A stretch of 64,000 nt of DNA from Candidatus Uhrbacteria bacterium (lineage in GTDB: Bacteria; Patescibacteriota; Patescibacteriia; UBA9934; GWF2-40-263): the NCBI GenBank assembly GCA_016188425.1, contig JACPHX010000009.1:3582-67581 (forward strand), in the 5' to 3' direction. Each line of letters starts with the position of its first letter. Position 1 is the first letter of the stretch. Both the position numbers and the translations under genes were made by a program. Shown in pieces: positions 5,175 through 49,126 of the stretch. Under the pieces are notes generated by a model. It saw only the letters and a program-made list of their open reading frames with translations, had not been told where the DNA came from and searched no databases.

Positions 5175-5180
5175 AGCATC

Positions 5181-5834
5181 TTAGTCGGTCAATTCGCTCA
5201 AGGCCTTAGTGTCCTCCGTGCCATAGAGGGTTTGGACATGGTGGGAGAGCGTGGCCATCAAGAGGGCGCCAAACATGAGGGCGCCGAATATCCCCGCCTC
5301 CAAGAGCGCCGGCACACCGGTGATCGTGGCGAAGGCAAAGGCAGAAATACCATTCTCAATCGTGAGGAAGCCGATAATCTGGGAGAGGACGTCACGACGG
5401 AAGATTAAAAGAAGCATGCCAACAAAGAAAACCTCTACAGAAAGAAGTATTGCCTGGTTGGAAACCGCGTGTTGGACGAATGGCCAATGGGAAACCGCAG
5501 CTGCCAGCCCAAGCACCATGACTAACGCAAGCAACAAAGATGTGGTTGGTCGAACACTTGTTTGGAGGCGCTCTAGTGCATGGCTCTTGCGCACGGATCG
5601 TGACAGAATCCACGGGACGAAGGCGACCTTCACCAGCACGGTGAGCGCCGCGACCGCCCAAAAATGTATCTCCCCACCTTGCCAAGCTAACACCGCGGCG
5701 TACACCGCCAGCATCAGCGAGGCAAACGCGTACAACCTAAGGATACTTCGTAACCGTAGCGTCACGATGCACATGAGCGAGGCGAGTAGGCAAAGCCCAA
5801 GGGCTATGAACTGGATCGCAACAGGAGAAATCAT
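5181..5834 (-). CDS. Small membrane subunit, HyfE/NuoK-like
   Basis: 217 aa and fully hydrophobic. Its size and position between the NuoH-like and NuoM-like genes match hydrogenase-4 component E. Confidence 0.55.
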   Translation of the reverse strand: MISPVAIQFIALGLCLLASLMCIVTLRLRSILRLYAFASLMLAVYAAVLAWQGGEIHFWAVAALTVLVKVAFVPWILSRSVRKSHALERLQTSVRPTTSLLLALVMVLGLAAAVSHWPFVQHAVSNQAILLSVEVFFVGMLLLIFRRDVLSQIIGFLTIENGISAFAFATITGVPALLEAGIFGALMFGALLMATLSHHVQTLYGTEDTKALSELTD

Positions 5835-6766
5835 ACGATCAGAGTGATAATGAGGCCGGCGACGCCAAGGACAAACGCATACGCGAGGTATTCCTGCATC
5901 CGGAAGAACCGCATTTTGGCGATAGAGGTTTCAAGCAAGGCCAACGCTCCCCCAAGAACGATCAGCTTTACCACGAGCGCTCCTACCGCCATCCCCAGGC
6001 CGACGAGTGTATAATCGACACCCGCAAGCAAGTAGGTGCTTGGAAGCAAGAAAGAGCCAATAAGGAGAACAAACACCGTAAGTTTCGTCCAACTTGCAAG
6101 CTCAAGGAGTGCAAGATACGGCCCGGAATATTCTAGAATCATCGCTTCATGAACCATCGTCAGCTCCAGGTGGGTTGCTGGGTTATCGACGGGGTAGCGT
6201 GCATTTTCCGCCAATGACACCAGCACAAGTGCGGCCAGAGAAAGCGCGAGACCCGGGTGCACCACCCATCCCACGACTCCGTTTCCAATCATAAGACTCA
6301 CCATAGCGGTTCCGCTCCCAAGACCGAAACCCGCGAGCGTGACAAAAAAGGCTGGCTCAACGAGAGCCGCAATGGTCATTTCGCGGCTGGCTCCCATGCC
6401 GCCAAAGGCGCTCCCGCTATCGAGGCCACCCAAGACAAGGAAGACGGATCCAAGGGCAAGGATCCCCGAAATGAGGACAAAGTGGGAAAGCGGGCTGATC
6501 CCCTCAAGGGTCAACAACGGCAGGACGGCGGCGGCGAATACTGTTGTTCCGAGAACGACGAATGGGACGGTGCGAAACACCCAAGACGCATTTGTCGAAA
6601 AAACGATCTCCTTCTTCATGAGGGTGAGGAAGGTGTAGTAAGGCAACAGTGGCGAAGCACCGTGGCGTCCTTGCAGACGCGCTTTGCAGAGGCGCACCCA
6701 TCCGATAAGGAAAGGCGCGACCAGGATGACGAGGAATGCTTGGATAATGGCAAAGATGATCATCAT
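5831..6766 (-). CDS. NuoH/HycD/HyfC-like membrane subunit
   Basis: Start taken at ATG 6766 (MMIIFAIIQ...), a 4-nt overlap with the upstream gene. Motif GWVRLCKARLQGRHGASPLLPYYTFLTLMKKE is typical of NuoH/HycD. The 5' extension in the ORF track (to 7123) is an R/P-rich read-through into the neighbouring gene and is rejected. Confidence 0.8.
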   Translation of the reverse strand: MMIIFAIIQAFLVILVAPFLIGWVRLCKARLQGRHGASPLLPYYTFLTLMKKEIVFSTNASWVFRTVPFVVLGTTVFAAAVLPLLTLEGISPLSHFVLISGILALGSVFLVLGGLDSGSAFGGMGASREMTIAALVEPAFFVTLAGFGLGSGTAMVSLMIGNGVVGWVVHPGLALSLAALVLVSLAENARYPVDNPATHLELTMVHEAMILEYSGPYLALLELASWTKLTVFVLLIGSFLLPSTYLLAGVDYTLVGLGMAVGALVVKLIVLGGALALLETSIAKMRFFRMQEYLAYAFVLGVAGLIITLIV

Positions 6767-8760
6767 AGGGCGAGTATCAGGCTCACGATGAGGGCGAGGA
6801 ACAAGAGGAACATGTAGAACTGAACGGAACCCGTTTGCAGGCGGCGTGCCTGCTTGCTGATCCAGAAGACCAATTTTTCCATTGGCGCGTAGCCGTATTC
6901 GACCCAAATGGAACGAACTTGGAGCGAGTAGGTGCGGCGTGCCATCCAGGGATTGGTGCTGACCATCGGCGTCGCCACGATCTCTTTGCGGATACGTAAG
7001 AGGGAACGGAAAAAGAAACGGATCGGGCCCGAGAACGCGGTGGCGGTGTATTCCATCCCCGGCGTAATCGGCTGGCCGCAATCCCATTGGTGGTAGGCGC
7101 GCTCGCGACGGACATCGCTCCAAAGGCGGCGCAACGCGTAGCAGAAGAGGATGGCTGCCAGGAGGGCGAGACCGACGATGAGCGGCGAAGAAGCGTTGGT
7201 ATCGGCACCCGCAAGAGGGGGGAAGAAATAGTTACCGCTTTGGACGAATTGCACTGTCTCCAAGCCAAAGACCATCCGCACGATGAGCGGGGCGAACAAT
7301 CCCATGAGAACCAGGAGCAATGCAGGCACCGCCATCGTAAACCGGTAGATCCCCCCTGCCGGCGTGGCTGCCTCTGCTTCTTTGCTTCGAGGAGCCCCGA
7401 GCATAGAAATACCGAAAAGCCGCACCATCGCAAAGATCGCCAGGCCTCCAACACACACCATGATGATCGCGATCAATAAGAGCACGATGCTTCCAGGCAT
7501 TCCATCAAGAATGGCCTGCCATATACTTGAAAGGAACATCCATTCGCCCCAGAAAGTTCCAAAAGGAGGGAGTGCGGCCGCGGAGAGACAGAGCACAAGG
7601 AAGAAGGCCGCAAATACCGGCATGCGTTTTGCAAGACCGCCCATTGCCTCCAACGAATGCGAATGAGTACGGGTGATAATGGTTCCCGCAGACAAGAACA
7701 ACCCTGCTTTGAACAAACCATGTGCCCACACATGGATAACGAGCGCCAGCAAGGAACCAATCGCCAAGGCCTGGTTACCGCCATACATTCCCAAGAAAAA
7801 AACCCCAGCCATCGTGAAAAGCAGCCCCATATTTTCTACGCTGCTCATAGCAAGGACGCGCTTAATATCCCGCTCAAGAAGCGCATAAAGAACGCCATAG
7901 AGCGCAGAAAGGAGGCCGAATCCAACCACCACATACGCGACCCAGCTTGGAAGGAATGGGCCAATGACGAATCCAAACCGGAGAAACCCATACAGAGCGA
8001 CTTTGAGCATCACGCCAGACATCAGCGCAGAAATGTGGCTCGGGGCCTGCGGATGTGCTTCTGGAAGCCAGGCATGAAACGGAACCAGGCCGGCCTTGGA
8101 ACCAAAACCAAAGAAAAATAATCCAAATGCGAGCCCTAACATCGGAACAGGTAAATCCGCAGCCGCGGAAAGATTAATAAAATCGATGGACAATGACCCA
8201 TCCCCTATCAAGAGCAATCCTCCTAAAATGGCCGCCCCTGAAATCTGCGTCATGGTCAGATAAAACAATGCCGCTTTGATTGAGGCCCGACTACACTCGG
8301 CCATGACAAGAAACGCCGAAGAAAGGGACATCAGTTCCCAAAAAAAGAAAAAAGAAATTGAGGTTTGTGCCAACAAAACCCCCTGCATACCCAAGACGAA
8401 CAAAGCGGTCCCCGCGAGCAAGGTAGGAAGATGGTATTTTTCCCGATAATCTTCGAGATAACGAAGCCCGAATATACCGCACAAGGCGGAAACCAGGCAC
8501 ACGAGCGTGAAGAATGCGGCGCTTAAACTATCAATCGAGAGGATGGTTGAGAAAACCGCTGGGAAGGAAATAATGCCAAGAAATGGCGTGCCTCCAACCA
8601 GAAGGAACAAGAATCCAGCAAGAGCCCCGACAAGCGTACTCATGATAAATACCATTTGCGCCGCCCACTCCGCCAATCGCGACCGGATCAGAGGAAGAAA
8701 CGCGGATGCAAGAACACCCAAGAGCGACAGGACGAACAGGCGAGGAAGGATTTCAATCAT
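6763..8760 (-). CDS. NuoL/HyfB/HycC-like antiporter-type membrane subunit
   Basis: 665 aa (HyfB is about 672). Carries the HAWLPEAHPQAPSHISALMSGVMLK antiporter block. Many TM helices. Confidence 0.85.
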   Translation of the reverse strand: MIEILPRLFVLSLLGVLASAFLPLIRSRLAEWAAQMVFIMSTLVGALAGFLFLLVGGTPFLGIISFPAVFSTILSIDSLSAAFFTLVCLVSALCGIFGLRYLEDYREKYHLPTLLAGTALFVLGMQGVLLAQTSISFFFFWELMSLSSAFLVMAECSRASIKAALFYLTMTQISGAAILGGLLLIGDGSLSIDFINLSAAADLPVPMLGLAFGLFFFGFGSKAGLVPFHAWLPEAHPQAPSHISALMSGVMLKVALYGFLRFGFVIGPFLPSWVAYVVVGFGLLSALYGVLYALLERDIKRVLAMSSVENMGLLFTMAGVFFLGMYGGNQALAIGSLLALVIHVWAHGLFKAGLFLSAGTIITRTHSHSLEAMGGLAKRMPVFAAFFLVLCLSAAALPPFGTFWGEWMFLSSIWQAILDGMPGSIVLLLIAIIMVCVGGLAIFAMVRLFGISMLGAPRSKEAEAATPAGGIYRFTMAVPALLLVLMGLFAPLIVRMVFGLETVQFVQSGNYFFPPLAGADTNASSPLIVGLALLAAILFCYALRRLWSDVRRERAYHQWDCGQPITPGMEYTATAFSGPIRFFFRSLLRIRKEIVATPMVSTNPWMARRTYSLQVRSIWVEYGYAPMEKLVFWISKQARRLQTGSVQFYMFLLFLALIVSLILAL

Positions 8761-8808
8761 ATTTGCTTTGCAGAGACGCCCAAATTAGGCGTCTTTACAC
8801 GAAATGCA

Positions 8809-9342
8809 TTAACGTTGTGCGGATTTCAACGCTCGCAGGACTCCACGTAGGATCTCCGTCGGTGTAGGTGGATCCCCAGGGATCTTGATGTGGACTTGGA
8901 TCACATTTTCGACAGCACCGACGACGGCATACGAATCCTTCCAAATGCCACCCGTGCAAGCTCCATCCCCTACCGCGACGACGATGCAGGGCTGTGGCGC
9001 TGCCTCGTACGTCGTTTTGACGGCACGTGCGAGGTTCCGCGTCACAGGACCCGTAACCCACACCATATCGGCATGGCGAGGGGAAGCCACGAAAGAAAGG
9101 CCAAACCGGTCGATATCGTAGTAGGCGTTGTTGAGGGCTGTAAGCTCGATTTCCTCCCCATTGGTCGATCCTCCATCTACCGCGCGTATACGCAAAGAAC
9201 GCCCGCCGTAGAGGGATTTAATCGTCGATTTGAGCTCATGCCCCACCTGTTCCAGTTCGCTATCTTTAGGCAAAAAATCCTTTGTCTCCTGCGTCACCCT
9301 AGGCCCAAAAAACAGTCGCCCCCACAACTTCAAAAGATACAT
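8809..9342 (-). CDS. NuoB / hydrogenase small-subunit homologue lacking the N2-cluster cysteines (EhrS-like)
   Basis: Conserved SPRHADMVWVTGPVTRNL block. GSCNGCExE is replaced by GGSTNGEEIE, and PGCPP by PGDPP. At most one of the four cluster-ligand Cys is retained (in AVGDGACTGG). Confidence 0.7.
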   Translation of the reverse strand: MYLLKLWGRLFFGPRVTQETKDFLPKDSELEQVGHELKSTIKSLYGGRSLRIRAVDGGSTNGEEIELTALNNAYYDIDRFGLSFVASPRHADMVWVTGPVTRNLARAVKTTYEAAPQPCIVVAVGDGACTGGIWKDSYAVVGAVENVIQVHIKIPGDPPTPTEILRGVLRALKSAQR

Positions 9343-9372
9343 AGGTAAGATTGTTTGCGTGAAATTGTGCTT

Positions 9373-9400
9373 ATTCTATGCCCGCAGCGATTTTTGGCAA
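9373..9400 (-). promoter_or_regulatory. Sigma70-like promoter for the Complex-I-like operon
   Basis: On the minus strand: TTGCCA (9400-9395), a 16-nt spacer, then TAGAAT (9378-9373), about 30 nt upstream of the NuoB-like ATG at 9342. Phased A-tracts at 9421-9475 lie just upstream (UP-element or curved-DNA-like). Confidence 0.45.
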
Positions 9401-9470
9401 GGGAGGTTAGGCACAGGGGTTAAAAATCAAAAACCAAATTCAAAAAACCAAAAATGGCAAAATAAGTGTC

Positions 9471-9548
9471 GCAAAAAAGTGCCAACGCTCGGCGTTAGCA
9501 GTGGAAACGCGAGTCTGTTGAGCGAAATCGCCAACGCCGAGCGTTGGC
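9471..9548 (-). terminator. atp operon intrinsic terminator (long hairpin plus U-run)
   Basis: 16-bp perfect inverted repeat gccaacgctcggcgtt / aacgccgagcgttggc (9481-9496 / 9533-9548). On the minus-strand RNA it is followed by UUUUUU (9475-9470). Located downstream of atpC. Confidence 0.6.
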
Positions 9549-9705
9549 AGCAAGCGACTCTTAAAGACCAATGGGGTTTGGATTAAATCCGCACATGAGC
9601 CCATCCTTGCCACCGGCCCATTGCGTACAACGGGCGTAGGTCACACGATTGTTACTTCCAAGAATCGTCAGAAAAAAGTCGTAGTGTTCCTCCATACTTA
9701 AGACA

Positions 9706-10149
9706 CTACGGCGTACTCCTCGGCACTGAATGTATTGATAAGTGCTTTCTTCTCGCCACCTTGGTCCTTGCCAACTCTCTCTCAAGCGCGGCGGCAGCGG
9801 CCGCGAAACCTACATCGTCGACCTGATGCTTCTCCAAGAGAACCTGCCGTGCGCGTTCCTTCGCCTCCTCGACCCTCACGAGGTCCAGCTCTTCCATCTT
9901 CTCTGCCGTGTCTGCGAGCACCAATGCTTCCCCGCCTTTTTTCACTTCCAAAAATCCCGTGGAGATCGCGAGGTATTCTTCCTTGCCCGCGACCTTGAGC
10001 TTCATCTCCCCTGCCTTGAGCGCCGCCAAAAGTTCGATGTGATTGGGCAGGATCGTAATTTCCCCGCTGCCAGTCATGACGGTCACCGAATCAACGTCCT
10101 GTGAGAGGACGGCGCGTTCGGGGGTGACTATAGATAAATGAAGAGGCAT
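9706..10149 (-). CDS. atpC: F1 ATP synthase epsilon subunit
   Basis: The N-terminal beta-sandwich block LxIVTPERAVxSQDVDSVTVMTGSGEITILPNHIELLAALKAGEMK is typical of epsilon. It sits at the operon end after beta. The C-terminal tail is longer than usual. Confidence 0.85.
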   Translation of the reverse strand: MPLHLSIVTPERAVLSQDVDSVTVMTGSGEITILPNHIELLAALKAGEMKLKVAGKEEYLAISTGFLEVKKGGEALVLADTAEKMEELDLVRVEEAKERARQVLLEKHQVDDVGFAAAAAALERELARTKVARRKHLSIHSVPRSTP

Positions 10150-10152
10150 ATT

Positions 10153-12467
<2,315 letters not shown>

Positions 12468-40971: not shown

Positions 40972-41081
40972 ACGACAAAAGAAAAGGATTACTTGAAAGC
41001 AAGTATAGCGCAACTTGTCAGGAAGGAAAGACGGCGGGCATTTTGACTTTTGTGTTTAATACCTGTACCATAGGTGGAGGT

Positions 41082-41363
41082 ATGCATCATCATCCCTCAC
41101 ACACCGATTCGGAGCCGCGGCTCAAAAAAGCGGAAGGCCAGCTCGCCCATGTGGCGCGCATGGTTAAGGACGGCGCGTATTGCATGGACATCATCCAGCA
41201 AGTGAACGCGCTCATCGGCATCCTGCAACAAGCCAACAGCCAGCTGCTGGCGCGGCATCTTGCCACCTGCGGGGCGAACCTTGCGTCGGAAGATCCGGAG
41301 GTAAAAGAAAAATTCATAAAAGAGATAGTGCGCGCGTGGACGATGGCGCAGCGCAAAGGCTGA
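41082..41363 (+). CDS. csoR: Copper-sensing transcriptional repressor, CsoR/RcnR family
   Basis: 93 aa. ATG at 41082 with GGAGG 2-6 nt upstream. The conserved RLK..EGQ…R block is present. Cu(I) ligand pattern C…H-x3-C is present as Cys in YCMDIIQQ and RHLATC. Confidence 0.85.
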   Translation: MHHHPSHTDSEPRLKKAEGQLAHVARMVKDGAYCMDIIQQVNALIGILQQANSQLLARHLATCGANLASEDPEVKEKFIKEIVRAWTMAQRKG

Positions 41364-41364
41364 T

Positions 41365-41763
41365 ATGACACACCCTTCCTTCAAACCATTCGCGTCCTTC
41401 CTTCTCCTTGCTCTTGTGTCAGGAAGCGTGTGCGCGCTCTCCCTGTTCATGGCGCCGCCCGCCTACGCATCGCCTGTCTCGCGCGACCTGTCTCCCGCCG
41501 CGATGTCGGCATCCATGGAACCGGCGCCAGCGCCCGCCCCCCAGACGGCGGTCTTTTGTTGCGAGAAAAACCGCATGAATCACCAACCGGATGCGACGGC
41601 TCCGGAACGACCGACCGTCTCCCGCCTCTCCGCCACGGCGCCGTTCGCGGCGCCCCGTATGCTTCGGAACGAACCGGCGTCGGCCCTCGCTCTCCCAAAG
41701 GAGACATTCCCTTTTCAAAGGCACCGCCGACAAATCATAGCCGCCGCCATCAAGCGCGAATAG
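41365..41763 (+). CDS. Small secreted Cys-containing hypothetical protein (copper operon member, low confidence)
   Basis: The ATG overlaps the csoR stop. Strong signal peptide MTHPSFKPFASFLLLALVSGSVCALSLFMAPPAYASP. Mature part is about 95 aa with FCCEKN. No recognised domain. Confidence 0.4.
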   Translation: MTHPSFKPFASFLLLALVSGSVCALSLFMAPPAYASPVSRDLSPAAMSASMEPAPAPAPQTAVFCCEKNRMNHQPDATAPERPTVSRLSATAPFAAPRMLRNEPASALALPKETFPFQRHRRQIIAAAIKRE

Positions 41764-41809: not shown

Positions 41810-43156
41810 ATGCCCCAACAAACTCTCCCTATCCGCGGCATGCACTGCCGCTCCTGCGAACTGCTTCTGGAGGATTCCATCGGTTCCGTCCAAGGCGTCG
41901 CAAAAGTTAAAGTGGATTTCCGCAAAGGATGCGCCCTCATCGAACACGGGGCGGATATTCCCAGCCGCCACGAGATCGAGCGCGCCATAACAAACGCCGG
42001 GTATGAAATCGGCGCCCCGGGGAAACTTCCTTGGCTCACCAAAGACTCGACGGATCGACGGTACGTCTTCATCGGTATCATCGTCGTCCTCATCCTCTAT
42101 TACGCCGCGCGCGGGACCGGGCTTTTTGACGTTGCTCTGGATGAATCGAACGTGGGCGTCGGTTTCGCCCTGACGCTTGGCCTCGTCGCCGGCATCTCTA
42201 CCTGCATGGCGCTTGTGGGTGGGCTCATCCTGGGTATCTCCGCCCGGCACGCCGAGCGCCATCCGGAAGCCACCTCCTGGCAGAAATTCCGCCCCCATCT
42301 CTTCTTCAATGCTGGTCGCATACTGGGCTACGCGATCCTCGGCGGACTCCTGGGTGGCCTGGGGAGCTTCCTTCAAATCTCCGGCGTCTTCCTCGCGTTC
42401 CTCACCCTCGCGGTCGCGCTCGTCATGATCTCGCTTGGGATTAAACTGACGAATCTCTCCCCGAGGATCTCGGCGACCTCCTTCACGCTTCCCTCCTCCA
42501 TTGCGCGCCTCTTTGGGATCTCGGAACATCAAAAAGAATACAGCCACAAGGCATCCATGGTGACCGGCGCGCTCACCTTCTTCCTCCCCTGCGGATTCAC
42601 GCAAGCGATGCAGTTGTATGCCGTCAGTACCGGGGACTTCAAAACCGGTGCGATGGTCATGGGCGCATTCGCCCTGGGAACCGCTCCGGCGCTTCTTGGC
42701 ATCGGAGGGCTCTCCTCGATCATGAAAGGAACCGCCGCGCGCGTCTTCTATGCCATCGTTGGCATCCTCTTGATTGCCTTTGGCCTCTACAACGTTCGCA
42801 GCGCGCTCTCGATCCTTCCCGTTACCGGTCCAACGAAGACAAATAACGAACTGAACTACTCGCCGATCAATCAAGGAGCGGCGCCTCAAGGAAACGTCCA
42901 GGTCATCACCATGACCCAATCCGCTTCCGGCTACTCCCCCGCCACGATGCGCGTCAAAGTCGGCATCCCGGTTCAATGGGTCGTCACCTCCGAATCGTCC
43001 TTCACCTGCGCCTCCACTATCGTGGCCCCGTCATTGGGAATTAATGCGGATCTGAAAAAGGGACAGAATGTCTTCACCTTCACCCCCACGGAAAAAGGAA
43101 CGATTCCCTTTTCCTGTTCCATGGGCATGTACCGCGGGTCGTTCATCGTTGAATAA
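41810..43156 (+). CDS. Fusion protein: HMA metal-binding domain + CcdA/DsbD-like (DsbD_2-type) 6-TM thiol core + C-terminal cupredoxin-like Cys/Met domain
   Basis: N-terminal GMHCRSCE (GMxCxxC). The TM core has single conserved Cys in GISTCMALVGG and FFLPCGFTQAM, the CcdA/DsbD arrangement. The extracytoplasmic C-terminal domain of about 100 aa carries FTCAS…FSCSMGMYRGSF. Confidence 0.7.
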   Translation: MPQQTLPIRGMHCRSCELLLEDSIGSVQGVAKVKVDFRKGCALIEHGADIPSRHEIERAITNAGYEIGAPGKLPWLTKDSTDRRYVFIGIIVVLILYYAARGTGLFDVALDESNVGVGFALTLGLVAGISTCMALVGGLILGISARHAERHPEATSWQKFRPHLFFNAGRILGYAILGGLLGGLGSFLQISGVFLAFLTLAVALVMISLGIKLTNLSPRISATSFTLPSSIARLFGISEHQKEYSHKASMVTGALTFFLPCGFTQAMQLYAVSTGDFKTGAMVMGAFALGTAPALLGIGGLSSIMKGTAARVFYAIVGILLIAFGLYNVRSALSILPVTGPTKTNNELNYSPINQGAAPQGNVQVITMTQSASGYSPATMRVKVGIPVQWVVTSESSFTCASTIVAPSLGINADLKKGQNVFTFTPTEKGTIPFSCSMGMYRGSFIVE

Positions 43157-43160
43157 ATCT

Positions 43161-43367
43161 ATGCACAGACTGAACTTTACGATCACGAATCTCACCTGTG
43201 ATGCCTGTATCAAAGTTTCGACTATGACGTTGCGCAAACTTCCTGGCGTCATGGATGTCCACGTTGATCTTTCAACAGGCGCCGCCACTATTCAATCGGA
43301 GGAACTTATCCATCCACGCGACGCAGAGCACGCGCTCACCGCAAAAGGATACACGGTCGCGTTCTAA
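43161..43367 (+). CDS. copZ: Copper chaperone CopZ (single HMA domain)
   Basis: 68 aa starting at ATG 43161 (MHRLNFTITNLTCDACIKV…), with the MxCxxC metal site. The ORF track starts it at 43068. Confidence 0.85.
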   Translation: MHRLNFTITNLTCDACIKVSTMTLRKLPGVMDVHVDLSTGAATIQSEELIHPRDAEHALTAKGYTVAF

Positions 43368-43376
43368 TCCAATTGT

Positions 43377-46262
43377 ATGCAACAACTCTATCGCGTCTCC
43401 GGGATGCATTGCGCTTCCTGCGAAACGCTTATCAACGAGGAGGTCGGAGGACTCCCCGGCGTGGTTGGTGTCGTCACCAGCGCCAAAGACGGAACATGTC
43501 GGGTCACAACCAGTGGGACGGTTTCAGAGGAAGCCGTCATCGGGGCGATCAAAGCGGCTGGCTATGATGCCGTACCGGAGACGATCTCTTCGCCGTCTAT
43601 CCCGACGCCGACCTCGAGAGACCCGCACACGACCCTCATCGAACGCGAAGGAACAACCGTGTCATTTCAATCAACCAAAAAGACTAAAGGAGAGGGAGTC
43701 TTGGAAATCGACGCGCACGGCCGGCCGACCTTCAAGGGAACCGTCACGACGGAACACTCGCATACGATCGAATTTCCCAAGAACATGCGGGAACAAATCA
43801 AAGACATCATCAGCTCCTTCGATTCCCTCTTCAAAGACAGGCAGGAATCGCCACAGACAAACCAACTGACCACGTCAGAAGCATCCGCCGCCTCGAGATC
43901 CGTGCAGCCGGCGCACTCGCAACAGGCCACCTTTGCATTGAACGGCATGCACTGCACTTCCTGCGCCGGCGTCATCAGCAAGAGCATCAAGAAACTCCCC
44001 GGGATCGTTGAAGCAAACGTCAGTTTTGCCTCGGAGAAAGCGCGGGTCACCTTCGATCCCCGCGTGGTGAACGAAGCTGTCATCATCGAACGCGTGAAAA
44101 AAGCCGGCTATCGCGCCGCCGTCTCCGCCAAGGCGGATCCGGAGGAGGATCGGGCGCGCCGCGCCAGGGAGATCGGTTCCTATTGGCGCCGTTTCCTCGC
44201 CGGAGCCATCCTCTCGTTGCCGATGGTCTATTTCATGTTCCTCGATTTCTTCGGCTTCCTTCCCGGCCGCTCCTTCCTCCTCCCTTGGGTCGGCGCCGTC
44301 TCCTTCGCGCTCGCGACCCCCGTCCAGCTCATCCTGGGAGCCGGATTCTACAAAGGGATGTGGTCGAGTTTGCGGATGAAGACGTTCAACATGGACAGCT
44401 TGATCGCGATCGGCACCAGCACCGCGTTCCTCTACAGCGTCGTCAACTTCCTCCTGTACGCGACGAAGAACGGCTCAATCCTAGGCCTCGCGGGAGAAAA
44501 AATTCCCGAGCTCTATTTTGAGACGGCCGCTTTCCTCATCACTTTCGTCCTTCTGGGAAAATGGCTGGAGAGCAAAGCGAAGGGGCAGACATCGGAGGCC
44601 GTGCGCAAGCTCATGGAACTGCAGGCGAAGACGGCGCGCGTCATCCGCGGCGGGAAGACGATTGATGTGCCGATCGGCGACGTCGTCGAACACGACACCG
44701 TCGTCGTCCGCCCGGGAGAAAAGGTGCCGGTCGACGGCATCATCGTCCGCGGCGACTCCTCGATCGATGAATCCATGCTGACCGGCGAGAGCATTCCCGT
44801 CGAGAAGCACGCGGGAGACAAGGTCATCGGCGCGACGGTAAACAAAAACGGCAGCTTCGAGTTCCGCGCGCTCAAGGTGGGAAGCGAGACGGTTCTGGCG
44901 CGCATCATCGAACTCGTAGAGGAGGCGCAGGGATCGCGCGCGCCCATCCAGGCATTTGCCGACCGCATCTCGGCGCGATTCGTCCCGATCGTCATTGGAA
45001 TCGCTGTCGCCACCTTCCTGGTCTGGTACTTCCTTCTCGGCGCCTCGCTTAGCTTCGCCCTCATGGCCTTTACGGCGGTCATCGTCATCGCCTGCCCTTG
45101 CGCGCTCGGGCTCGCGACGCCGACAGCCATCATGGTGAGCACGGGCATAGGGGCGCAACACGGCATCCTCATCAAGGGAGGCGAGCCATTGGAGGCCGCG
45201 TGCAAGGTACGTGCGATCGTCTTTGACAAGACCGGCACGCTCACTAAAGGCAAGCCGGAGGTCACGGACGTACAGACGCTTGGAACCCTCGACGAAGACG
45301 CGGTTATGGAAATCGCCGCGGGGCTGGAGGGCAAATCGGAACACCCGCTTGCGGAAGCCATCTGCCGGTACGCGGAGGAAGAAAACATCGAACCGTCCGA
45401 GGTGGCCTCCTTCCAAGCCGTTCCTGGCCAGGGAGTCCAAGGAGCGATCGATGGGACTCCGTACTATTTCGGCAATCGGAAATTGATGGAAACGCTGCAC
45501 ATTGATGGTCGTCGCATCGAGCGGAAAATGCGTAAGCTCGAGGAGGAGGGCAAAACCGCCATGCTCCTCTCCAGCGACAAAGAACTCCTCGGCATCATCG
45601 CCGTCGCGGACGCGATCAAATCTACGTCCCCATCCGCCATGGCATCGCTCAAACGCCTCGGGCTGGCCGTCTACATGATCACGGGCGACAATACGCGAAC
45701 CGCTCTGGCTATCGCGCGGCAAGCCGGCATCGAGGAGCAGAACGTGCGGGCGGAGGTGCTCCCGGAGGACAAGGCGAATGAGGTGAAAAAAATCCAAGCG
45801 GCGGGAGTGAAGGTTGCCATGGTCGGCGACGGGCTCAACGACGCCCCCGCGCTCGCGCAGGCGGATGTCGGCATCGCGATGGGCAGCGGCACGGACGTGG
45901 CCATGGAGGCGGGAAGCATCGTGCTCATGAAAAACGACTTGGAGGATGTTGTTTCCGCGATCCAGCTGAGCCGCGAGACGCTGGGGAAGGTAAAACAGAA
46001 CCTCTTCTTCTCGCTGTTCTACAACGTGATCGGCATCCCGATCGCGGCCCGCGTCTTCATCGGCTTGGGGATCGTCCTTCGCCCGGAACTCGCGGGCCTC
46101 GCCATGGCCTTAAGCTCCGTCTCGGTCGTGGCGAACTCCCTCTTGCTGCGCCGGTTCCGACCAGGCCGGCGCAACTGGCTCTCGACGTTCGCGCCCGTAG
46201 CGATGACCGGGGCGTTCACGATGGCGTTCATCCTCCTGGCCAGAGTAAGCGCGGGAGGATAG
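43377..46262 (+). CDS. copA: Cu(I)-translocating P1B-type ATPase CopA with two N-terminal HMA domains
   Basis: Two GMHCxSC motifs, TGES, CPC ([12 protein letters not shown]), [17 protein letters not shown]. 961 aa. Confidence 0.95.
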
Positions 46263-46277
46263 CGGCAACAGATAAAT

Positions 46278-46308
46278 CCGCCAGGCATTCATGCCTGGCG
46301 GGTTTTTA
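46278..46308 (+). terminator. Intrinsic terminator after copA
   Basis: 11-bp perfect stem ccgccaggcat/atgcctggcgg with a 2-nt loop, followed by GTTTTT. Confidence 0.75.
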
Positions 46309-46389: not shown

Positions 46390-48417
46390 TCAAAACGGCT
46401 TCCTTGTATTCTCTGCCAAAGACCTTCGCCGCAGCAATACCGCGTTCACCGCCACGATCACCGTGGACACGCTCATGAACACCGCGGCGACCGCGGGCTC
46501 CAGGATGATGCCTCTGGAGGCGAGCACGCCGGCGGCCAGCGGAAGCGCCACGAGGTTGTATCCTGTCGCCCAAAAGAGGTTCTGGATCATCTTGGCATAG
46601 GTCAGCTTGGAGAGCTTGATGATTTTTGGAATGTCTCTTGGATCGTTCTTGACCAGGATGATCCCTGCTGATTCGATCGCGACATTCGTCCCCGCGCCGA
46701 TGGCGATCCCCAGGTCTGCCTGCGTCAGGGCGGGCGCGTCGTTCACCCCATCCCCCACCATCGCCACGATATGCCCTTTTTGCTGCAATGACTTCACCGT
46801 ATCAGCTTTCTGACCGGGAAGAACCTTCGCAAAATATTCATCGATCCCGATCTCTTTGGCCACCCATGCGGCCACATCCTCCGAGTCCCCCGTGATCATC
46901 GCTGTGCGTATCCCCACGGCCTTCAAGGACGCGACTGCTTCTCTGGATTCTTCGCGGATGATGTCCGCAAGGGCGATGGCACCCAACAGACGGTGAACTG
47001 AAGCGACATAGATCACCGTCTTCCCCTCTCTTGAAAGCGTCTGGATCTGTCGTGCGACCTCGGATGGGATCGCGACAGACGTTTCCTCCATGAGCGCGAT
47101 GTTTCCGACAGACACCTTTCCCCCCTCGACCCAACCTTGAGCTCCCTTTCCCGGAACGCGCTCAAATTGTTTCACCTCTTTATGGTCGATCTTCCGCGCC
47201 CGCGCTTCGTCGACTATGGCTTTGGCAAGTGGATGCTCCGACTGGCTGTTGACCGACGCGGCCATGGCGAGTACTTGGTTTGCCTCAACCGAATCGACGG
47301 GGACGATTTCGCTCACGCCAAATGCCCCGAGGGTCAGCGTTCCCGTCTTGTCGAAAAGCACGGTATCAATCGTCCGCGCGGCTTCCAGCGAGAGACGCTG
47401 CTTGATGAGCAGGCCGTTGCGCGCAGCCATAGTCGTCGAAATAGACGCGACCAGCGGTACGGCGAGCCCAAGCGCGTGGGGACAGGCGACCACGAGCACG
47501 GCGACGAGTCGCTCCGTCGCGGTCACGAGACCGGCGTCGGCGAGAAGCCACGCGATGAAGGTGATCCCTCCAGATGTCACCGCGATGACGGTCAAATACA
47601 GCGCCGCGCGATCGGAGAGAATCTGGAGTTTAGATTTGGATGCCTGCGCCTGTGCGACTAATCGCATCACCCCCGCGAGGAACGTCGCCTCCCCGATCTT
47701 ATCGACGCGCACCGTAAGCCCGCCGTCGCCATTGAGCGATCCGGCGATCACCTGATCCCCCATCTTCTTGCTCACCGGTTTTGATTCACCCGTGACGACT
47801 GCCTCATTTACATCCGACTGCCCTTCCTCGATGACGCCGTCGGCCGGCACTTTGCTTCCTGGGCGGACGAGGACGCGGTCGCCTGCGACCAGTTCCGAGA
47901 GAGGGATCTTCTCCGTTTTTCCTTCTCGGATCACCTCCGCGACATCCGGCAATAATTTTGCGAGTTCCTTCAATGCCCCTTGCGCGCCGGACACAGCCCT
48001 CATCTCGATCCAGTGGCCAAGCAGCATCACCGCGATGAGCGTCGATAATTCCCAAAAGAGCGTTTCCTCTCTGCCGGCGAATACCGAGAACGCACTAAAC
48101 AGATACGCGGCCGTGATCGCGATAGAAATAAGCGTCATCATTCCCGGAAGTTTCGCGCGGATCTCGCGAGCCGCCCCCGCGATGAACACCCACCCGCCGT
48201 AAAAAAAGATGATGGATCCCAACAACAAAAATGAAATTTGGTCCCCGACGAATCGCGGGAGACGCCACCCGATCACGATTTCAGGCATGTCGGAAGCAAA
48301 GAGAATCGGCACCATCAAAATCAGCACCACCCAAAGTTTTTGCAAAAAAGCATCTGTCGAATGCCCCGCATGCTTGTCTGTCTCCTGCGCGTGTGAGTGG
48401 TGCTCTTCCATACGCAT
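46390..48417 (-). CDS. copB: P1B-type ATPase with CPH motif and His-rich N-terminus (CopB-type)
   Basis: Start ATG 48417 (MRMEEHHSHAQETDKHAGHS). TGES, CPH (VACPHALGLAVP), DKTGTLT, GDGVNDAPAL. The ORF track extends it to 48540. Confidence 0.9.
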   Translation of the reverse strand: MRMEEHHSHAQETDKHAGHSTDAFLQKLWVVLILMVPILFASDMPEIVIGWRLPRFVGDQISFLLLGSIIFFYGGWVFIAGAAREIRAKLPGMMTLISIAITAAYLFSAFSVFAGREETLFWELSTLIAVMLLGHWIEMRAVSGAQGALKELAKLLPDVAEVIREGKTEKIPLSELVAGDRVLVRPGSKVPADGVIEEGQSDVNEAVVTGESKPVSKKMGDQVIAGSLNGDGGLTVRVDKIGEATFLAGVMRLVAQAQASKSKLQILSDRAALYLTVIAVTSGGITFIAWLLADAGLVTATERLVAVLVVACPHALGLAVPLVASISTTMAARNGLLIKQRLSLEAARTIDTVLFDKTGTLTLGAFGVSEIVPVDSVEANQVLAMAASVNSQSEHPLAKAIVDEARARKIDHKEVKQFERVPGKGAQGWVEGGKVSVGNIALMEETSVAIPSEVARQIQTLSREGKTVIYVASVHRLLGAIALADIIREESREAVASLKAVGIRTAMITGDSEDVAAWVAKEIGIDEYFAKVLPGQKADTVKSLQQKGHIVAMVGDGVNDAPALTQADLGIAIGAGTNVAIESAGIILVKNDPRDIPKIIKLSKLTYAKMIQNLFWATGYNLVALPLAAGVLASRGIILEPAVAAVFMSVSTVIVAVNAVLLRRRSLAENTRKPF

Positions 48418-48421
48418 CTGC

Positions 48422-49126
48422 TTATCTAAGCGGCCGATCGAACCGGTAATCGCCCTCCATCCGCCGGAACACATCCTGCTCGCAGGCATAGATGACCGGG
48501 CGGGCCGTTTCCAATTCGATAAACGGAATTTGTTCATCACTGATGGACTCCAAAAATTTGATCACAGCGCGCAATGTGTTCCCATGGGCGGTCATGAGGA
48601 TGGTCTCCCCCGCTTTGATGCGCGGATGAATCTGCGTCTCAAAGTACGGAACGACACGGTCATACACATCCTTTAAACTTTCCCCGCCCGGAGGTCGAGC
48701 GACAAAACTTCTTCGCCATCCCAGCACTTGTTCTTCCCCAAATTCCTTCGCCGCCGCTTCCTTATTCATCCCTTGAAGTTCGCCATATGCACGTTCATTC
48801 AGGGCCTCGGAGGTGAAGATGGGAAGTGTTTCGCCCTTAAACCAAGCAGGCATTCGATCCAGCCGATTGTACCGTTCATCAGCCCCATGGCTGAACACGC
48901 CGATTTTATGCTGAGAGGATAAGATGATGAGCAGCGTCTGATGCGCCCGTTCGAGGTTCGATGTAAACGCCGCGTCATAATCGAAACGCTTGCAGTGGCC
49001 CGCCAAATCCTGCGCCTCCTGGATGCCGTTCTCGCTCAACGGCACATCCAGCCAACCGGTAAACCGATTCAAGATGTTCATTCGAGACTCACCATGGCGA
49101 ACAAGGACGAGAGTTCCGTGTGTCAT
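48422..49126 (-). CDS. gpmA: 2,3-bisphosphoglycerate-dependent phosphoglycerate mutase
   Basis: Start ATG 49126 (MTHGTLVLVRHGESRMNILNRFTGWLDVPLSENG…), a near-exact GpmA N-terminal signature. Its stop is 2 nt from the copB start. Confidence 0.85.
   Translation of the reverse strand: MTHGTLVLVRHGESRMNILNRFTGWLDVPLSENGIQEAQDLAGHCKRFDYDAAFTSNLERAHQTLLIILSSQHKIGVFSHGADERYNRLDRMPAWFKGETLPIFTSEALNERAYGELQGMNKEAAAKEFGEEQVLGWRRSFVARPPGGESLKDVYDRVVPYFETQIHPRIKAGETILMTAHGNTLRAVIKFLESISDEQIPFIELETARPVIYACEQDVFRRMEGDYRFDRPLR

What the first reader, a model, noticed from the sequence alone, without database searches (positions are those of the whole stretch)
41810..43156. Unusual three-part fusion in the copper operon: HMA domain + CcdA/DsbD-like thiol transmembrane core + cupredoxin-like Cys/Met domain
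- **Fusion architecture:**
  - A cytoplasmic metallochaperone-type GMHCRSCE domain.
  - A six-helix core that has exactly the two conserved single cysteines (…STCMALV…, …FFLPCGF…) that CcdA/DsbD use to shuttle electrons across the membrane.
  - An extracytoplasmic beta-domain of about 100 aa with FTCAS and FSCSMGM motifs, suggestive of a Cu-binding cupredoxin-like or CopC-like site.
- **Proposed function:** a single polypeptide that could accept Cu(I) or electrons in the cytoplasm, relay reducing power through the membrane, and present or reduce copper on the outside.
- **Context:** it sits between csoR and copZ-copA, so it is under copper control.
- **Novelty:** I am not aware of a characterised protein with this arrangement. 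It is a candidate new copper-handling mechanism, for example an extracytoplasmic Cu(II) to Cu(I) reductase coupled to CopA efflux, or a MerT-analogous importer.
Basis: partly seen in the sequence, partly recalled or inferred. Interest (0 to 1): 0.65.

Follow-up and report, generated by a model that had tools for sequence, protein, structure and literature searches.

The report
Three-station copper thiolate membrane relay
This gene is a real member of a widespread but uncharacterised family of membrane proteins that string three cysteine-based copper(I) sites from the cytoplasm, through the membrane, to the cell surface, and it probably helps move or hand off toxic copper alongside the CopA pump.

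Summary
ORF 41810..43156 (+, 448 aa) carries HMA, DsbD_2 and Cupredoxin_1 domains, each above Pfam's cutoff. All six candidate ligand cysteines (C13, C16, C132, C261, C400, C436) are invariant in 66 representatives of 33-53% identity.

- **Membrane core:** it is a true DsbD/CcdA homologue. Its two cysteines align with E. coli DsbD Cys163 and Cys285. It belongs to the DsbD_2 ("UreH-like") branch, not TauE/SafE.
- **C-terminal domain:** it is neither a blue-copper protein nor CopC. It is a CupA-type Cu(I) chaperone domain (Foldseek TM 0.85 to PDB 4F2E) with all four CupA ligands conserved. A 7-TM, N-in topology places it outside the cell.
- **Context:** a CsoR-operator-controlled operon, csoR / small CC protein / fusion / copZ / copA. 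CopA follows the fusion gene in 67 of 80 related loci.
- **Fission and fusion:** the three modules also occur as separate neighbouring genes in Firmicutes and Deinococcus.

The architecture is common (at least 587 species genomes, mostly Patescibacteria) but I found no characterised member. My best reading is a Cu(I) thiolate relay or permease acting in export (about 0.45). The main rival is a CcdA-type reductant shuttle (about 0.3).

The parts
41043..41071 (+). Sigma-70-like promoter (TTGACT, 17 nt spacer, TACCAT) upstream of csoR
   Evidence: Consensus scan, 9 of 12 matches. This is a pattern match only.
41060..41082 (.). Candidate CsoR operator TACCTGTACC-ATA-GGTGGAGGTA. It is an imperfect palindrome that overlaps the -10 hexamer and the csoR start codon.
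   Evidence: Inverted repeat with 11-nt arms. It is the only perfect match to TACCnnnACCnnnGGTnnnGGTA in the 64-kb window. The motif occurs 16 times (<=1 mismatch) in 80 related loci against 0.2 expected by shuffling. Thirteen of those lie within 1.3 kb upstream of the fusion gene, mostly 15-70 nt before csoR.
41082..41363 (+). csoR: copper-sensing repressor, 93 aa from the ATG at 41082
   Evidence: Pfam Trns_repr_metal, E 8.9e-18. NCBIfam RicR-like hit. Called as a 93-aa gene on identical contigs. The sequence shows a C34...H59...C63 pattern, which I read from memory as the Cu(I)-type CsoR ligand fingerprint.
41365..41763 (+). Small membrane-anchored protein (132 aa) with a near-invariant P-x-CC motif (C65, C66) and a C-terminal KRE. 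Probably a real extra operon member.
   Evidence: No Pfam or NCBIfam hit. Positional equivalents in many related loci share an N-terminal anchor, a CC motif, a PP motif and a C-terminal (K/R)E. Pairwise E 2e-4 to the 134-aa gene called in L086.
41810..43156 (+). The fusion gene: HMA, TM0, six-helix DsbD_2 core, linker and CupA-like cupredoxin (448 aa)
41822..42007 (+). Cytoplasmic HMA domain (res 5-66) with C13-x-x-C16 (codons 41846..41857)
   Evidence: Pfam HMA, 38.5 bits against a cutoff of 24.8. [quoted passage not shown] C13 and C16 are 66/66 invariant.
42059..42115 (+). Extra transmembrane helix TM0 (res 84-102) that sets the N-in, C-out topology
   Evidence: Hydropathy peak 1.87. AF2 helix 80-103.
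42152..42808 (+). Six-helix DsbD_2 / UreH-like core (res 115-333). C132 (codon 42203..42205) lies in core TM1 and C261 (42590..42592) in core TM4, each at a helix break.
   Evidence: PF13386, 111 bits. hhalign to E. coli DsbD aligns C132 with Cys163 and C261 with Cys285. Helix breaks at 128-130 and 259 in the AF2 model. C132, C261, R170, T264, F166 and S130 are 66/66; Q268 is 65/66.
42809..42883 (+). Flexible, poorly conserved linker (res 334-358)
   Evidence: pLDDT below 50 for res 339-359. Length is variable in the alignment.
42884..43150 (+). Extracytoplasmic CupA-type cupredoxin domain (res 359-447). Ligands are C400 (43007..43009) and C436-S-M438-G-M440 (43115..43129).
   Evidence: Pfam Cupredoxin_1. 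phmmer to CupA 2MRY/4F2E, E 1.2e-9. Profile search E 2.5e-16. Foldseek to 4F2E gives TM 0.85, rmsd 1.9 A. The ligands align with CupA C74, C111, M113 and M115.
43161..43367 (+). copZ: 68-aa HMA metallochaperone (CDAC motif), starting 5 nt after the fusion gene's stop
   Evidence: Pfam HMA and NCBIfam CopZ hits. Called as a 68-aa gene. Sequence.
43377..46262 (+). copA: P1B-type Cu(I) ATPase with two N-terminal HMA domains
   Evidence: Pfam E1-E2_ATPase, Hydrolase and 2x HMA. A CopA homologue lies downstream on the same strand in 67 of 80 related loci.

Best explanation
The protein is a 7-TM membrane protein with three Cu(I)-type sulfur sites placed in series across the membrane:
- a cytoplasmic HMA domain (C13xxC16);
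- a mid-membrane cysteine dyad (C132 on core TM1, C261 on core TM4) inside a DsbD/CcdA-derived, UreH-like six-helix core;
- a tethered extracytoplasmic CupA-type cupredoxin domain (C400 and C436-x-M438-x-M440).

I propose that Cu(I) is passed by ligand exchange from the cytoplasmic HMA site (loaded directly or from CopZ), through the membrane dyad, to the outer CupA-like site. That would make it an ATP-independent Cu(I) export or hand-off path. It is co-expressed with CopZ and CopA from a CsoR-repressed operon when copper rises.

**Shown here:** domain identities, ligand conservation, the homology of the dyad to DsbD's catalytic cysteines, the operon and operator, synteny with CopA, and fission/fusion of the three modules.

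**Predicted:** topology.

**Inferred:** that the cargo is Cu(I) rather than electrons, and that the direction is outward.
For: 1. All three modules carry invariant Cys or Met ligands across 66 diverse representatives.
2. The outer domain is CupA-like with all four CupA Cu(I) ligands. CupA is a Cu(I) chaperone with a high-affinity bis-thiolate S1 site and a Met-rich S2 site (review PMC7558416).
3. Hydropathy and the positive-inside rule give 7 TM helices. Loops on the HMA side carry K+R of 4, 4 and 1-2; loops on the other side carry 0, 0 and 1. This places HMA inside and the cupredoxin outside.
4. The HMA domain is a metal-binding module. It is fused to the core in most close Firmicutes relatives even when no outer domain is fused (326-395 aa 'HMA+DsbD_2' proteins). 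This suggests HMA plus core is the basic unit.
5. In those relatives TM1 reads SLHCxAMCGG (His, two Cys, Met), which I read (my inference) as a soft-metal-binding signature.
6. NCBI names one such protein 'UreH domain-containing'. Some members of the UreH family are reported to mediate Ni transport (PMC2667541). That the window's DsbD_2 core belongs to that same family rests on this one NCBI name and was not tested directly.
7. Fission and fusion link the modules:
   - Stand-alone, N-anchored CupA-like proteins (NGCN...YSCWMGM) sit next to HMA-core genes in L089, L090 and L091. The L090 protein is 44% identical (E 2e-36) to the Acetoanaerobium fusion's C-terminal part and gives E 9e-18 against the window protein.
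   - Deinococcus has a core-cupredoxin gene with a separate HMA gene next to it.
8. Copper context: CopA follows on the same strand in 67 of 80 loci, and in 68 of the 72 informative loci it is adjacent. The CsoR operator motif is enriched (16 hits against 0.2 expected).
9. An analogy recalled from memory: in the Mer system Hg(II) passes between a membrane Cys pair (MerT) and HMA domains (MerP, NmerA). NCBIfam lists MerT-HMA fusion families (MerTP, MerT/CopZ), seen here only as HMA-region hits.
Against: - The membrane dyad aligns exactly with DsbD Cys163 and Cys285, which carry electrons, not metal. Some relatives pass Pfam's DsbD_TM cutoff. So an electron-shuttle role is a live alternative.
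- No member of this family has been characterised.
- No driving force for export is identified, and UreH-type relatives are importers.
- CopZ and CopA already form a complete export path in the same operon.
- The AF2 model of the core has only moderate confidence (pLDDT about 60-78), and I had no coordinates to check the Cys-Cys distance.
- No solved structure matched the core.
Confidence: 0.45

Rival explanations
1. CcdA/DsbD-type reductant shuttle. The C132/C261 dyad carries electrons, not metal, from the cytoplasm to the outside. This keeps the extracytoplasmic Cu(I)-binding thiols reduced: its own CupA-like domain (C400/C436), the small CC protein, and CC tails. Those sites can then capture Cu(I) expelled by CopA. 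The HMA domain would act as a copper sensor or gate, or as a docking module.
For: - The dyad aligns with DsbD's catalytic Cys163 and Cys285.
- Relatives hit PF02683 DsbD_TM above its cutoff.
- Both cysteines sit at helix breaks in TM1 and TM4, which I recall (not tested here) is also the arrangement in CcdA/DsbD.
- Cysteine-based copper sites outside the cell need a reductant. From memory, the precedents are CcdA/TlpA keeping Sco reduced, and ScsB-ScsC in copper tolerance.
- Membrane-anchored DsbA-like proteins occur within 6 kb in 11 of 80 loci, and directly upstream of the fusion gene in 4.
Against: - There is no thioredoxin-fold acceptor fused or consistently adjacent (69 of 80 loci lack one).
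- From memory, the thioredoxin-to-CcdA pathway needs no HMA domain, yet HMA is near-universal here.
- The proline-flanked motifs seen around DsbD's cysteines (TPCVLP, SPCTTAP) are absent from TM1 (STCMAL) and altered in TM4 (LPCGFTQ).
- Extra His, Met and Cys residues in TM1 of Firmicutes relatives look like metal ligands.
- From general knowledge, many host lineages (Patescibacteria, Clostridia, Syntrophomonadaceae) are anaerobes, where surface thiols would stay reduced anyway.
Confidence: 0.3
2. Extracytoplasmic cupric reductase (one of the first reader's proposals). Electrons shuttled through the dyad let the outer CupA-like domain reduce Cu(II) to Cu(I).
For: - CupA reduces Cu(II) to Cu(I) in vitro through its S1 cysteines (PMC7558416, citing Neubert 2017).
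- The DsbD-like dyad could recycle those cysteines.
Against: - From general knowledge, Cu(I) is the more toxic and more permeant species, so making it outside the cell would be counter-productive in an operon that CsoR de-represses when copper is in excess.
- The review cited treats CupA's reductase activity as secondary to its chaperone role.
- The domain lacks the two His ligands I recall for type-1 copper centres; Cys and Met align at those positions.
Confidence: 0.07
3. MerT-like importer. The outer CupA-like domain captures Cu(I) and passes it inward through the dyad to the HMA domain, then to CopZ.
For: - The order of sites mirrors, from memory, MerP to MerT to NmerA.
- Some members of the UreH family are reported to mediate Ni uptake.
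Against: - The gene sits in a CsoR-controlled efflux operon and is adjacent to CopA in 68 of 72 informative loci.
- Import that is induced by copper excess, and feeds the exporter, would be a futile cycle.
Confidence: 0.06
4. Passive surface Cu(I) acceptor or buffer. The membrane core is only an anchor or scaffold, and nothing crosses it. The outer domain simply accepts Cu(I) released by CopA.
For: - Synteny with CopA is tight.
- Stand-alone anchored CupA-like proteins exist.
Against: - A simple anchor would not keep C132, C261, R170, T264 and Q268 invariant over 66 divergent representatives.
- A simple anchor would not need a fused cytoplasmic HMA domain.
Confidence: 0.07

Closest known systems
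[quoted passage not shown]
   Same: - Cupredoxin beta-barrel fold (Foldseek TM 0.85, rmsd 1.9 A, 31% identity).
- All four Cu(I) ligands are conserved: C74, C111, M113 and M115 correspond to C400, C436, M438 and M440.
- It is tethered to the membrane by a preceding TM helix.
- It is encoded in a cop operon.
   Different: - Here the domain is the C-terminal module of a 7-TM protein and is predicted to face outside. The review describes CupA as trapping copper that has already entered the cell and passing it to CopA's N-terminal metal-binding site, which implies a cytoplasmic site of action.
- The local CopA has HMA-type metal-binding domains, not cupredoxin ones.
- The review states that CupA occurs in only a few streptococci. 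This domain family was found in hundreds of Patescibacteria and Firmicutes genomes.
CcdA/DsbD transmembrane thiol-disulfide electron transporters (PF02683; TC 5.A.1)
   Same: - Homologous six-helix core (hhalign E 6e-6 to E. coli DsbD).
- One invariant Cys in TM1 and one in TM4, aligned with DsbD Cys163 and Cys285.
- Helix breaks at both cysteines.
   Different: - The window protein matches only the sister family PF13386.
- The flanking proline motifs are changed.
- There is no thioredoxin-fold partner.
- The fused partners are two metal-binding domains (HMA and CupA-like).
- Electron transfer was not tested.
UreH-type secondary Ni transporters and other DsbD_2 ('UreH-like TM domain') proteins
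   Same: - NCBI names a close HMA-core relative that carries PF13386 'UreH domain-containing'. This name is the only link I have between PF13386 and UreH.
- Six-helix membrane domain, linked to metal handling.
   Different: - UreH is linked to Ni uptake for urease and lacks the HMA and cupredoxin modules.
- I could not compare a bona fide UreH sequence directly.
MerT/MerP/NmerA mercury relay, and MerT-HMA fusion proteins (NCBIfam MerTP_fusion, MerT_CopZ_Se)
   Same: - The logic is the same: a soft metal is passed by thiol ligand exchange between an HMA domain and a membrane Cys pair (recalled from memory).
   Different: - There is no sequence similarity to MerT's membrane part. The NCBIfam hits cover only the HMA region.
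- The probable direction is opposite, and the metal is different.
COG2836 proteins (HMA + DsbD_2 +/- DUF2318) of gut Firmicutes
   Same: - Same HMA-core unit.
- Predicted computationally to belong to the CsoR regulon (PMC4938975).
   Different: - That paper describes a different C-terminal module (DUF2318) and gives no mechanism or experiment.
- The CupA-like module, and its occurrence as a split gene, are described here.

Membership tests
HMA (PF00403) metallochaperone-type domain | Pfam score above the gathering cutoff | tested here: met
   38.5 bits against a cutoff of 24.8, res 5-66
HMA (PF00403) metallochaperone-type domain | [quoted passage not shown] | tested here: met
   G10-M-H-C13-R-S-C16 is present, and C13 and C16 are 66/66. 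The AF2 secondary structure is E3-9, H14-25, E30-36, E41-46, H53-62 at high pLDDT.
DsbD_2 / UreH-like TM domain (PF13386) | Pfam score above the gathering cutoff over the full model | tested here: met
   111.4 bits against 24.9, covering model positions 2-199 of 199. All 66 representatives match.
CcdA/DsbD thiol-disulfide transporter (PF02683, TC 5.A.1) | Sequence membership in PF02683 | tested here: not met
   The window protein has no PF02683 hit even at E<=10. Only 2 of 22 relatives hit it; for example the Acetoanaerobium protein scores 36.8 bits against a cutoff of 27.1.
CcdA/DsbD thiol-disulfide transporter (PF02683, TC 5.A.1) | One essential Cys in TM1 and one in TM4, equivalent to DsbD Cys163 and Cys285 | tested here: met
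   hhalign of core profile A3 against E. coli DsbD: prob 85%, E 6e-6. C132 aligns with precursor C182 (mature C163) and C261 with precursor C304 (mature C285). Both are 66/66 invariant.
CcdA/DsbD thiol-disulfide transporter (PF02683, TC 5.A.1) | Proline-flanked cysteine motifs (PCxxP type) in both helices | tested here: not met
   TM1 reads S-T-C-M-A-L with no proline. TM4 reads L-P-C-G-F-T-Q, with only the preceding proline kept.
CcdA/DsbD thiol-disulfide transporter (PF02683, TC 5.A.1) | Two homologous three-helix repeats | tested here: inconclusive
   There are six helices, with breaks at the cysteines in helices 1 and 4. hhalign of the N-terminal half against the C-terminal half was not significant (E 0.07-0.5).
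CcdA/DsbD thiol-disulfide transporter (PF02683, TC 5.A.1) | Thioredoxin-fold extracytoplasmic acceptor, and electron transfer from cytoplasmic thioredoxin | not testable with these tools
   No thioredoxin-fold domain is fused. DsbA-like genes lie nearby in only 11 of 80 loci. The activity needs biochemistry.
CupA-type cupredoxin Cu(I) chaperone | Cupredoxin beta-barrel fold matching CupA | tested here: met
   Foldseek top hit 4F2E, TM-score 0.85 (target-normalised), rmsd 1.9 A, E 3.6e-7. 4F2F is second.
CupA-type cupredoxin Cu(I) chaperone | Binuclear-site ligands Cys74, Cys111, Met113 and Met115 | tested here: met
   They align with C400, C436, M438 and M440. Conservation is C400 and C436 66/66, M438 65/66, M440 50/66.
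CupA-type cupredoxin Cu(I) chaperone | Cytoplasm-facing domain that serves a CopA with a cupredoxin-type N-terminal metal-binding domain | tested here: not met
   The predicted topology puts the domain outside. The neighbouring CopA has two HMA domains and no cupredoxin.
CupA-type cupredoxin Cu(I) chaperone | Actual Cu(I) binding and transfer | not testable with these tools
   Needs metal-binding assays or XAS.
Type-1 (blue) copper cupredoxins (plastocyanin, amicyanin) | His-Cys-His-Met copper ligand set (recalled from memory) | tested here: not met
   Amicyanin and plastocyanin hits are weak (E 0.01-0.5). In the CupA-type alignment the ligand positions are C400 and C436-x-M438-x-M440, with no His ligand.
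TauE/SafE sulfite exporter (the NCBI name given to homologues) | Match to Pfam TauE (PF01925) | tested here: not met
   No TauE hit for the whole protein or for 22 core sequences, even at E<=10.
MerT mercury transporter | Sequence similarity to the MerT membrane domain with its vicinal CC pair in TM1 | tested here: not met
   The NCBIfam MerTP and MerT_CopZ hits cover only the HMA part of those models (model positions 122-185 and 165-226) and are far below their cutoffs.
CopC | Match to a CopC family model | tested here: not met
   No CopC hit in Pfam or NCBIfam.

The most novel reading that the evidence does not exclude
A DsbD/CcdA electron-shuttle scaffold has been re-used as an ATP-independent Cu(I) conduit. 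A single polypeptide (or a split three-gene module) passes Cu(I) by thiolate ligand exchange from a cytoplasmic HMA site, through a two-cysteine mid-membrane site, to a CupA-type chaperone domain on the cell surface. That would be a previously undescribed class of copper transporter, typical of Patescibacteria and anaerobic Firmicutes. It would also be the first extracytoplasmic role for the CupA fold.
Probability: 0.4. Interest if true: 0.75.

Novelty: new variant of a known kind. Interest (0 to 1): 0.55.

Why it matters
Bacterial copper export is currently explained by P1B ATPases, RND pumps and soluble chaperones. A widespread membrane protein family sits next to CopA in nearly every Patescibacteria copper locus examined. 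It carries a strictly conserved chain of cysteine sites across the membrane. If the chain carries copper, it points to an unrecognised step in copper handling: an ATP-independent thiolate relay. If it carries electrons, it is a built-in reductant supply for surface copper sites.

Either answer would extend CupA biology. The 2020 review describes CupA as confined to a few streptococci and as acting on copper that has entered the cell. This family would take the CupA fold to the cell surface of many anaerobic and ultra-small bacteria.

The finding would also correct a misleading database name ('sulfite exporter TauE/SafE'). The hypothesis can be tested directly with Cys-to-Ser mutants in a heterologous host.

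Tried and rejected
- **TauE/SafE sulfite exporter (database name):** rejected. There is no PF01925 hit even at E<=10.
- **Blue-copper or CopC-like outer domain:** rejected in favour of CupA type.
- **PDB sequence-profile search with the core alone:** no relative found.
- **Internal 3+3 repeat of the core by hhalign:** not significant.
- **tblastn for the small ORF:** it found no homologues. Positional and motif analysis later showed that it is conserved but fast-evolving.
- **The ORF upstream of the fusion in L071:** I first took it for a CcdA. It has paired CC motifs but no Pfam hit, so I no longer call it CcdA.
- **Literature searches:** PF13386, COG2836, DsbD_2 + copper, CcdA + HMA fusion, TauE + CopZ + CsoR, and Cupredoxin_1 found no characterised member.
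- **Plasmid collection search:** it gave only 9 hits, which were useful for cultured examples in Acetoanaerobium and Deinococcus.
Full report
**1. The observation**

The window holds an ORF at 41810..43156 on the + strand encoding 448 aa.

Pfam finds three domains, each above its gathering score:
- HMA, res 5-66, 38.5 bits.
- DsbD_2 (PF13386), res 120-327, 111.4 bits.
- Cupredoxin_1 (PF13473), res 359-447, 37.6 bits.

The neighbours are as follows:
- a CsoR-family repressor (93 aa from the ATG at 41082);
- an unannotated 132-aa ORF (41365..41763);
- the fusion gene;
- a 68-aa CopZ (43161..43367);
- a CopA with two HMA domains (43377..46262);
- a convergent second P1B ATPase (46390..48540, minus strand).

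The protein has seven TM helices rather than six, and a small gene separates it from csoR.

**2. Conservation and spread**

A whole-database search returned about 6,000 hits. The best 120 nearly all share the three-domain architecture. Most come from Patescibacteria (Uhrbacteria, Magasanikbacteria, Kerfeldbacteria and others). They are named 'sulfite exporter TauE/SafE family protein' or 'heavy metal transport/detoxification protein'.

An exhaustive search of 50%-identity cluster representatives gave 980 clusters at E<=1e-30, a count that includes partial and shorter architectures. The best 150 almost all align over residues ~5-447 of the query.

In 35 relatives of 52-76% identity, and in 66 representatives of 33-53% identity, the conservation is:
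- C13, C16, C132, C261, C400 and C436: invariant (66/66).
- M438: 65/66. M440: 50/66.
- Core residues S130, F166, R170, P260, F263 and T264: 66/66. Q268: 65/66.

The window protein is therefore one ordinary member of a large, strongly constrained family. It is not a one-off fusion.

**3. The C-terminal domain is CupA-like**

- A sequence search of the PDB hits S. pneumoniae CupA (2MRY/4F2E, E 1.2e-9) and the cupredoxin-like metal-binding domain of its CopA (4F2F, E 2e-7). Blue-copper proteins appear only marginally (amicyanin, E about 0.01-0.06).
- With a family profile, CupA reaches E 2.5e-16.
- An AlphaFold2 model (mean pLDDT 72.9; this domain about 80-94) has 4F2E as its best Foldseek match: target-normalised TM-score 0.85, rmsd 1.9 A, 31% identity.
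- In the alignment, CupA's Cys at chain position 49 and its C-G-M-N-M at positions 86-90 (Cys74 and Cys111/Met113/Met115 in full-length numbering) pair with C400 and C436-S-M438-G-M440.

According to the review PMC7558416, CupA holds a binuclear Cu(I) cluster. [quoted passage not shown] The domain here is thus a Cu(I)-chaperone module, not an electron-transfer cupredoxin or a CopC.

**4. The membrane core**

- None of 22 core sequences hits TauE, even at E<=10. All hit DsbD_2, and two also hit the genuine CcdA/DsbD family PF02683 (down to 4.5e-10).
- The cultured-organism homologue from Acetoanaerobium noterae passes the cutoffs of both models.
- A profile-sequence comparison of the core with E. 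coli DsbD gives probability 85% and E 6e-6 over 172 columns. It places C132 on DsbD precursor Cys182 (mature Cys163) and C261 on Cys304 (mature Cys285). I recognise these, from memory, as DsbD's two catalytic membrane cysteines.
- The AF2 model shows helix breaks exactly at these cysteines (res 128-130 and 259).

Three things differ from the canonical family:
- The window protein is not itself a PF02683 member.
- The proline-flanked motifs are altered (STCMAL and LPCGFTQ, against TPCVLP and SPCTTAP in DsbD).
- NCBI names a close relative 'urease accessory protein UreH domain-containing protein'. This ties the DsbD_2 fold to the UreH family, some of whose members are reported to mediate Ni transport (PMC2667541). 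That link rests on this one name and I did not test it directly.

No solved structure matched the core by profile search.

**5. Topology**

Hydropathy analysis and the AF2 helices agree on TM0 (res 84-102) plus six core helices. Loops on the same side as the HMA domain carry 4, 4 and 1-2 Lys+Arg. Loops on the other side carry 0, 0 and 1. The HMA domain is N-terminal and has no signal peptide. The prediction is therefore N-in and C-out, which puts the CupA-like domain outside, on a flexible linker of about 25 residues (pLDDT below 50). This is a prediction, not a measurement.

**6. Regulation and context**

- A sigma-70-like promoter (41043..41071) overlaps an imperfect palindrome, TACCTGTACC-ATA-GGTGGAGGTA (41060..41082), which ends at the csoR start codon.
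- The pattern TACCnnnACCnnnGGTnnnGGTA has one match in the 64-kb window. It has 16 matches (<=1 mismatch) in 80 related loci against 0.2 expected from shuffles. Thirteen of those lie within 1.3 kb upstream of the fusion gene, usually 15-70 nt before csoR. I read it as the CsoR operator.
- The local CsoR shows a C34...H59...C63 pattern. From memory, this is the Cu(I)-type CsoR ligand fingerprint.
- A CopA homologue (>=300 bits) starts within 3 kb downstream on the same strand in 67 of the 80 loci. Eight contigs are too short to tell, one has CopA directly upstream, and four have none.
- CsoR-like and CopZ-like genes were detected in 29 and 28 loci. Both proteins are short, so detection is probably incomplete.

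**7. Fission and fusion of the modules**

- Searching with the Acetoanaerobium core showed that most Firmicutes-type relatives are 326-395-aa 'HMA + core' proteins with no cupredoxin domain. Their TM1 reads SLHCxAMCGG and their TM4 reads GLMPCGPLQAMQ.
- In three such loci the adjacent gene encodes a stand-alone, N-terminally anchored protein with NGCN...YSCWMGM and a C-terminal CC motif (L089, L090, L091).
- The L090 protein aligns to TM6, the linker and the cupredoxin domain of the Acetoanaerobium fusion (44% identity, E 2e-36). It aligns to the window's C-terminal domain at 41% identity, E 9e-18.
- These loci also carry P1B ATPases and metal regulators.
- In Deinococcus sp. QL22 the core-cupredoxin protein is followed by a separate 74-aa HMA gene.

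The same three modules therefore occur fused in different combinations or as neighbours. This is good comparative evidence that they act together.

**8. Mechanism**

Two readings fit the anatomy.

*(a) Cu(I) relay or permease.* All three stations are bis-thiolate or thioether sites of the kind that exchange Cu(I).
- The HMA domain is a metal module with no role that I know of in thioredoxin-to-CcdA electron flow, yet it is the constant partner of the core.
- The Firmicutes TM1 motif adds His, Met and a second Cys.
- The family is tied by name to UreH metal permeases.
- From memory, the Mer system offers a precedent for metal exchange between HMA domains and a membrane Cys pair.
- The direction would be outward, given CsoR control and the CopA context.

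*(b) CcdA-type reductant shuttle.* The dyad is homologous to DsbD's catalytic pair. Cysteine-based copper sites outside the cell need to be kept reduced. DsbA-like exported proteins lie near 11 of the 80 loci.

I rank (a) first at about 0.45 and (b) second at about 0.3. The cargo and the direction are inferences. Only biochemistry or genetics can decide.

**9. Novelty and score**

I found no characterised member in the searchable literature. The nearest mention is a computational paper that lists COG2836 (HMA + DsbD_2 + DUF2318) as a predicted CsoR-regulon member in gut Firmicutes (PMC4938975).

The architecture is catalogued, though misleadingly named, in public databases. The window adds just one more member of it. 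What this analysis adds is:
- identification of the outer module as CupA-type, with its full ligand set;
- its predicted extracytoplasmic location;
- alignment of the dyad with DsbD's catalytic cysteines;
- the fission/fusion pattern of the three modules;
- the conserved operator;
- the small CC-motif protein.

I rate it a new variant of known kinds (CcdA/DsbD-UreH core, HMA, CupA) with interest 0.55. It is a solid, testable lead for copper biology rather than a categorical surprise.

Noticed in passing
window 41365..41763 (+): The 132-aa ORF between csoR and the fusion gene looks like a real, fast-evolving gene. It has an N-terminal Lys-rich membrane anchor, a Met/His-rich stretch, a near-invariant P-x-CC motif (VFCCEKNRMNH), a PP motif and a C-terminal KRE. 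Positional equivalents with the same features occur in many related loci, and one is a called 134-aa gene in L086. It was not called on the identical Logan contigs, and it has no Pfam or NCBIfam hit. It may be an extracytoplasmic copper-binding partner.
   Followed up: partly
window 41060..41082; related loci L006, L010, L038, L050, L056, L061, L063, L069, L073, L074, L077 and others: A 23-nt palindromic motif, TACCnnnACCnnnGGTnnnGGTA, is conserved just upstream of csoR in Patescibacteria copper loci (16 hits against 0.2 expected). It is probably the CsoR operator for this lineage. In L050 and L060 a second copy lies downstream of the fusion gene, ahead of copZ/copA.
   Followed up: partly
alignment A1 columns about 490-655 (for example P0068, P0071, P0072, P0083, P0107): Many relatives (550-610 aa) carry a Gly/Cys-rich linker (GGSCGSGGCGCGG) and a second cupredoxin domain with GCM...TCPMGMWR after the first. 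The window protein lacks this extension. Firmicutes stand-alone CupA-like proteins end in a CC motif instead.
   Followed up: no
L012, L027, L042, L048 (directly upstream of the fusion gene); 11 of 80 loci within 6 kb: Membrane-anchored DsbA-like thioredoxin-fold proteins (ECPFCK or ECPYCK; Pfam Thioredoxin_4/DSBA) accompany the copper locus in a minority of genomes. A polytopic membrane protein with paired CC motifs (FAPCC...SACCAPV, no Pfam hit) lies near 9 of 80 loci. Neither is present in the window.
   Followed up: partly
window 46390..48540 (-): A second P1B-type ATPase, convergent with copA, has a His-rich N-terminus (EEHHSHAQETDKHAGH) and no HMA domain, which suggests a CopB-like pump. 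A strong terminator-like hairpin (46278..46301) sits between the two ATPase genes. Similar second ATPases occur near the fusion gene in several related loci.
   Followed up: no
database names of homologues; record titles: The common NCBI name 'sulfite exporter TauE/SafE family protein' has no Pfam TauE support. Several MAGs that carry this Patescibacteria-type locus are labelled Lentisphaerae, Gammaproteobacteria, Bdellovibrionales or Pseudomonadales. These are probably binning or taxonomy errors.
   Followed up: no
window 41810 vs 41840: Gene callers on the identical Logan contigs start the fusion protein at Met11 (438 aa). That would cut off the first beta-strand of the HMA domain. The homologue alignment and the AF2 model (strand 3-9) support the ATG at 41810.
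   Followed up: yes
L082 (Deinococcus sp. QL22 plasmid) 3843..10192: The core-cupredoxin gene and its separate HMA gene sit in a metal island with a DUF4396 membrane protein, a two-component system, merB and a MerR-family regulator. This hints that some family members may handle mercury or other soft metals rather than copper.
   Followed up: no
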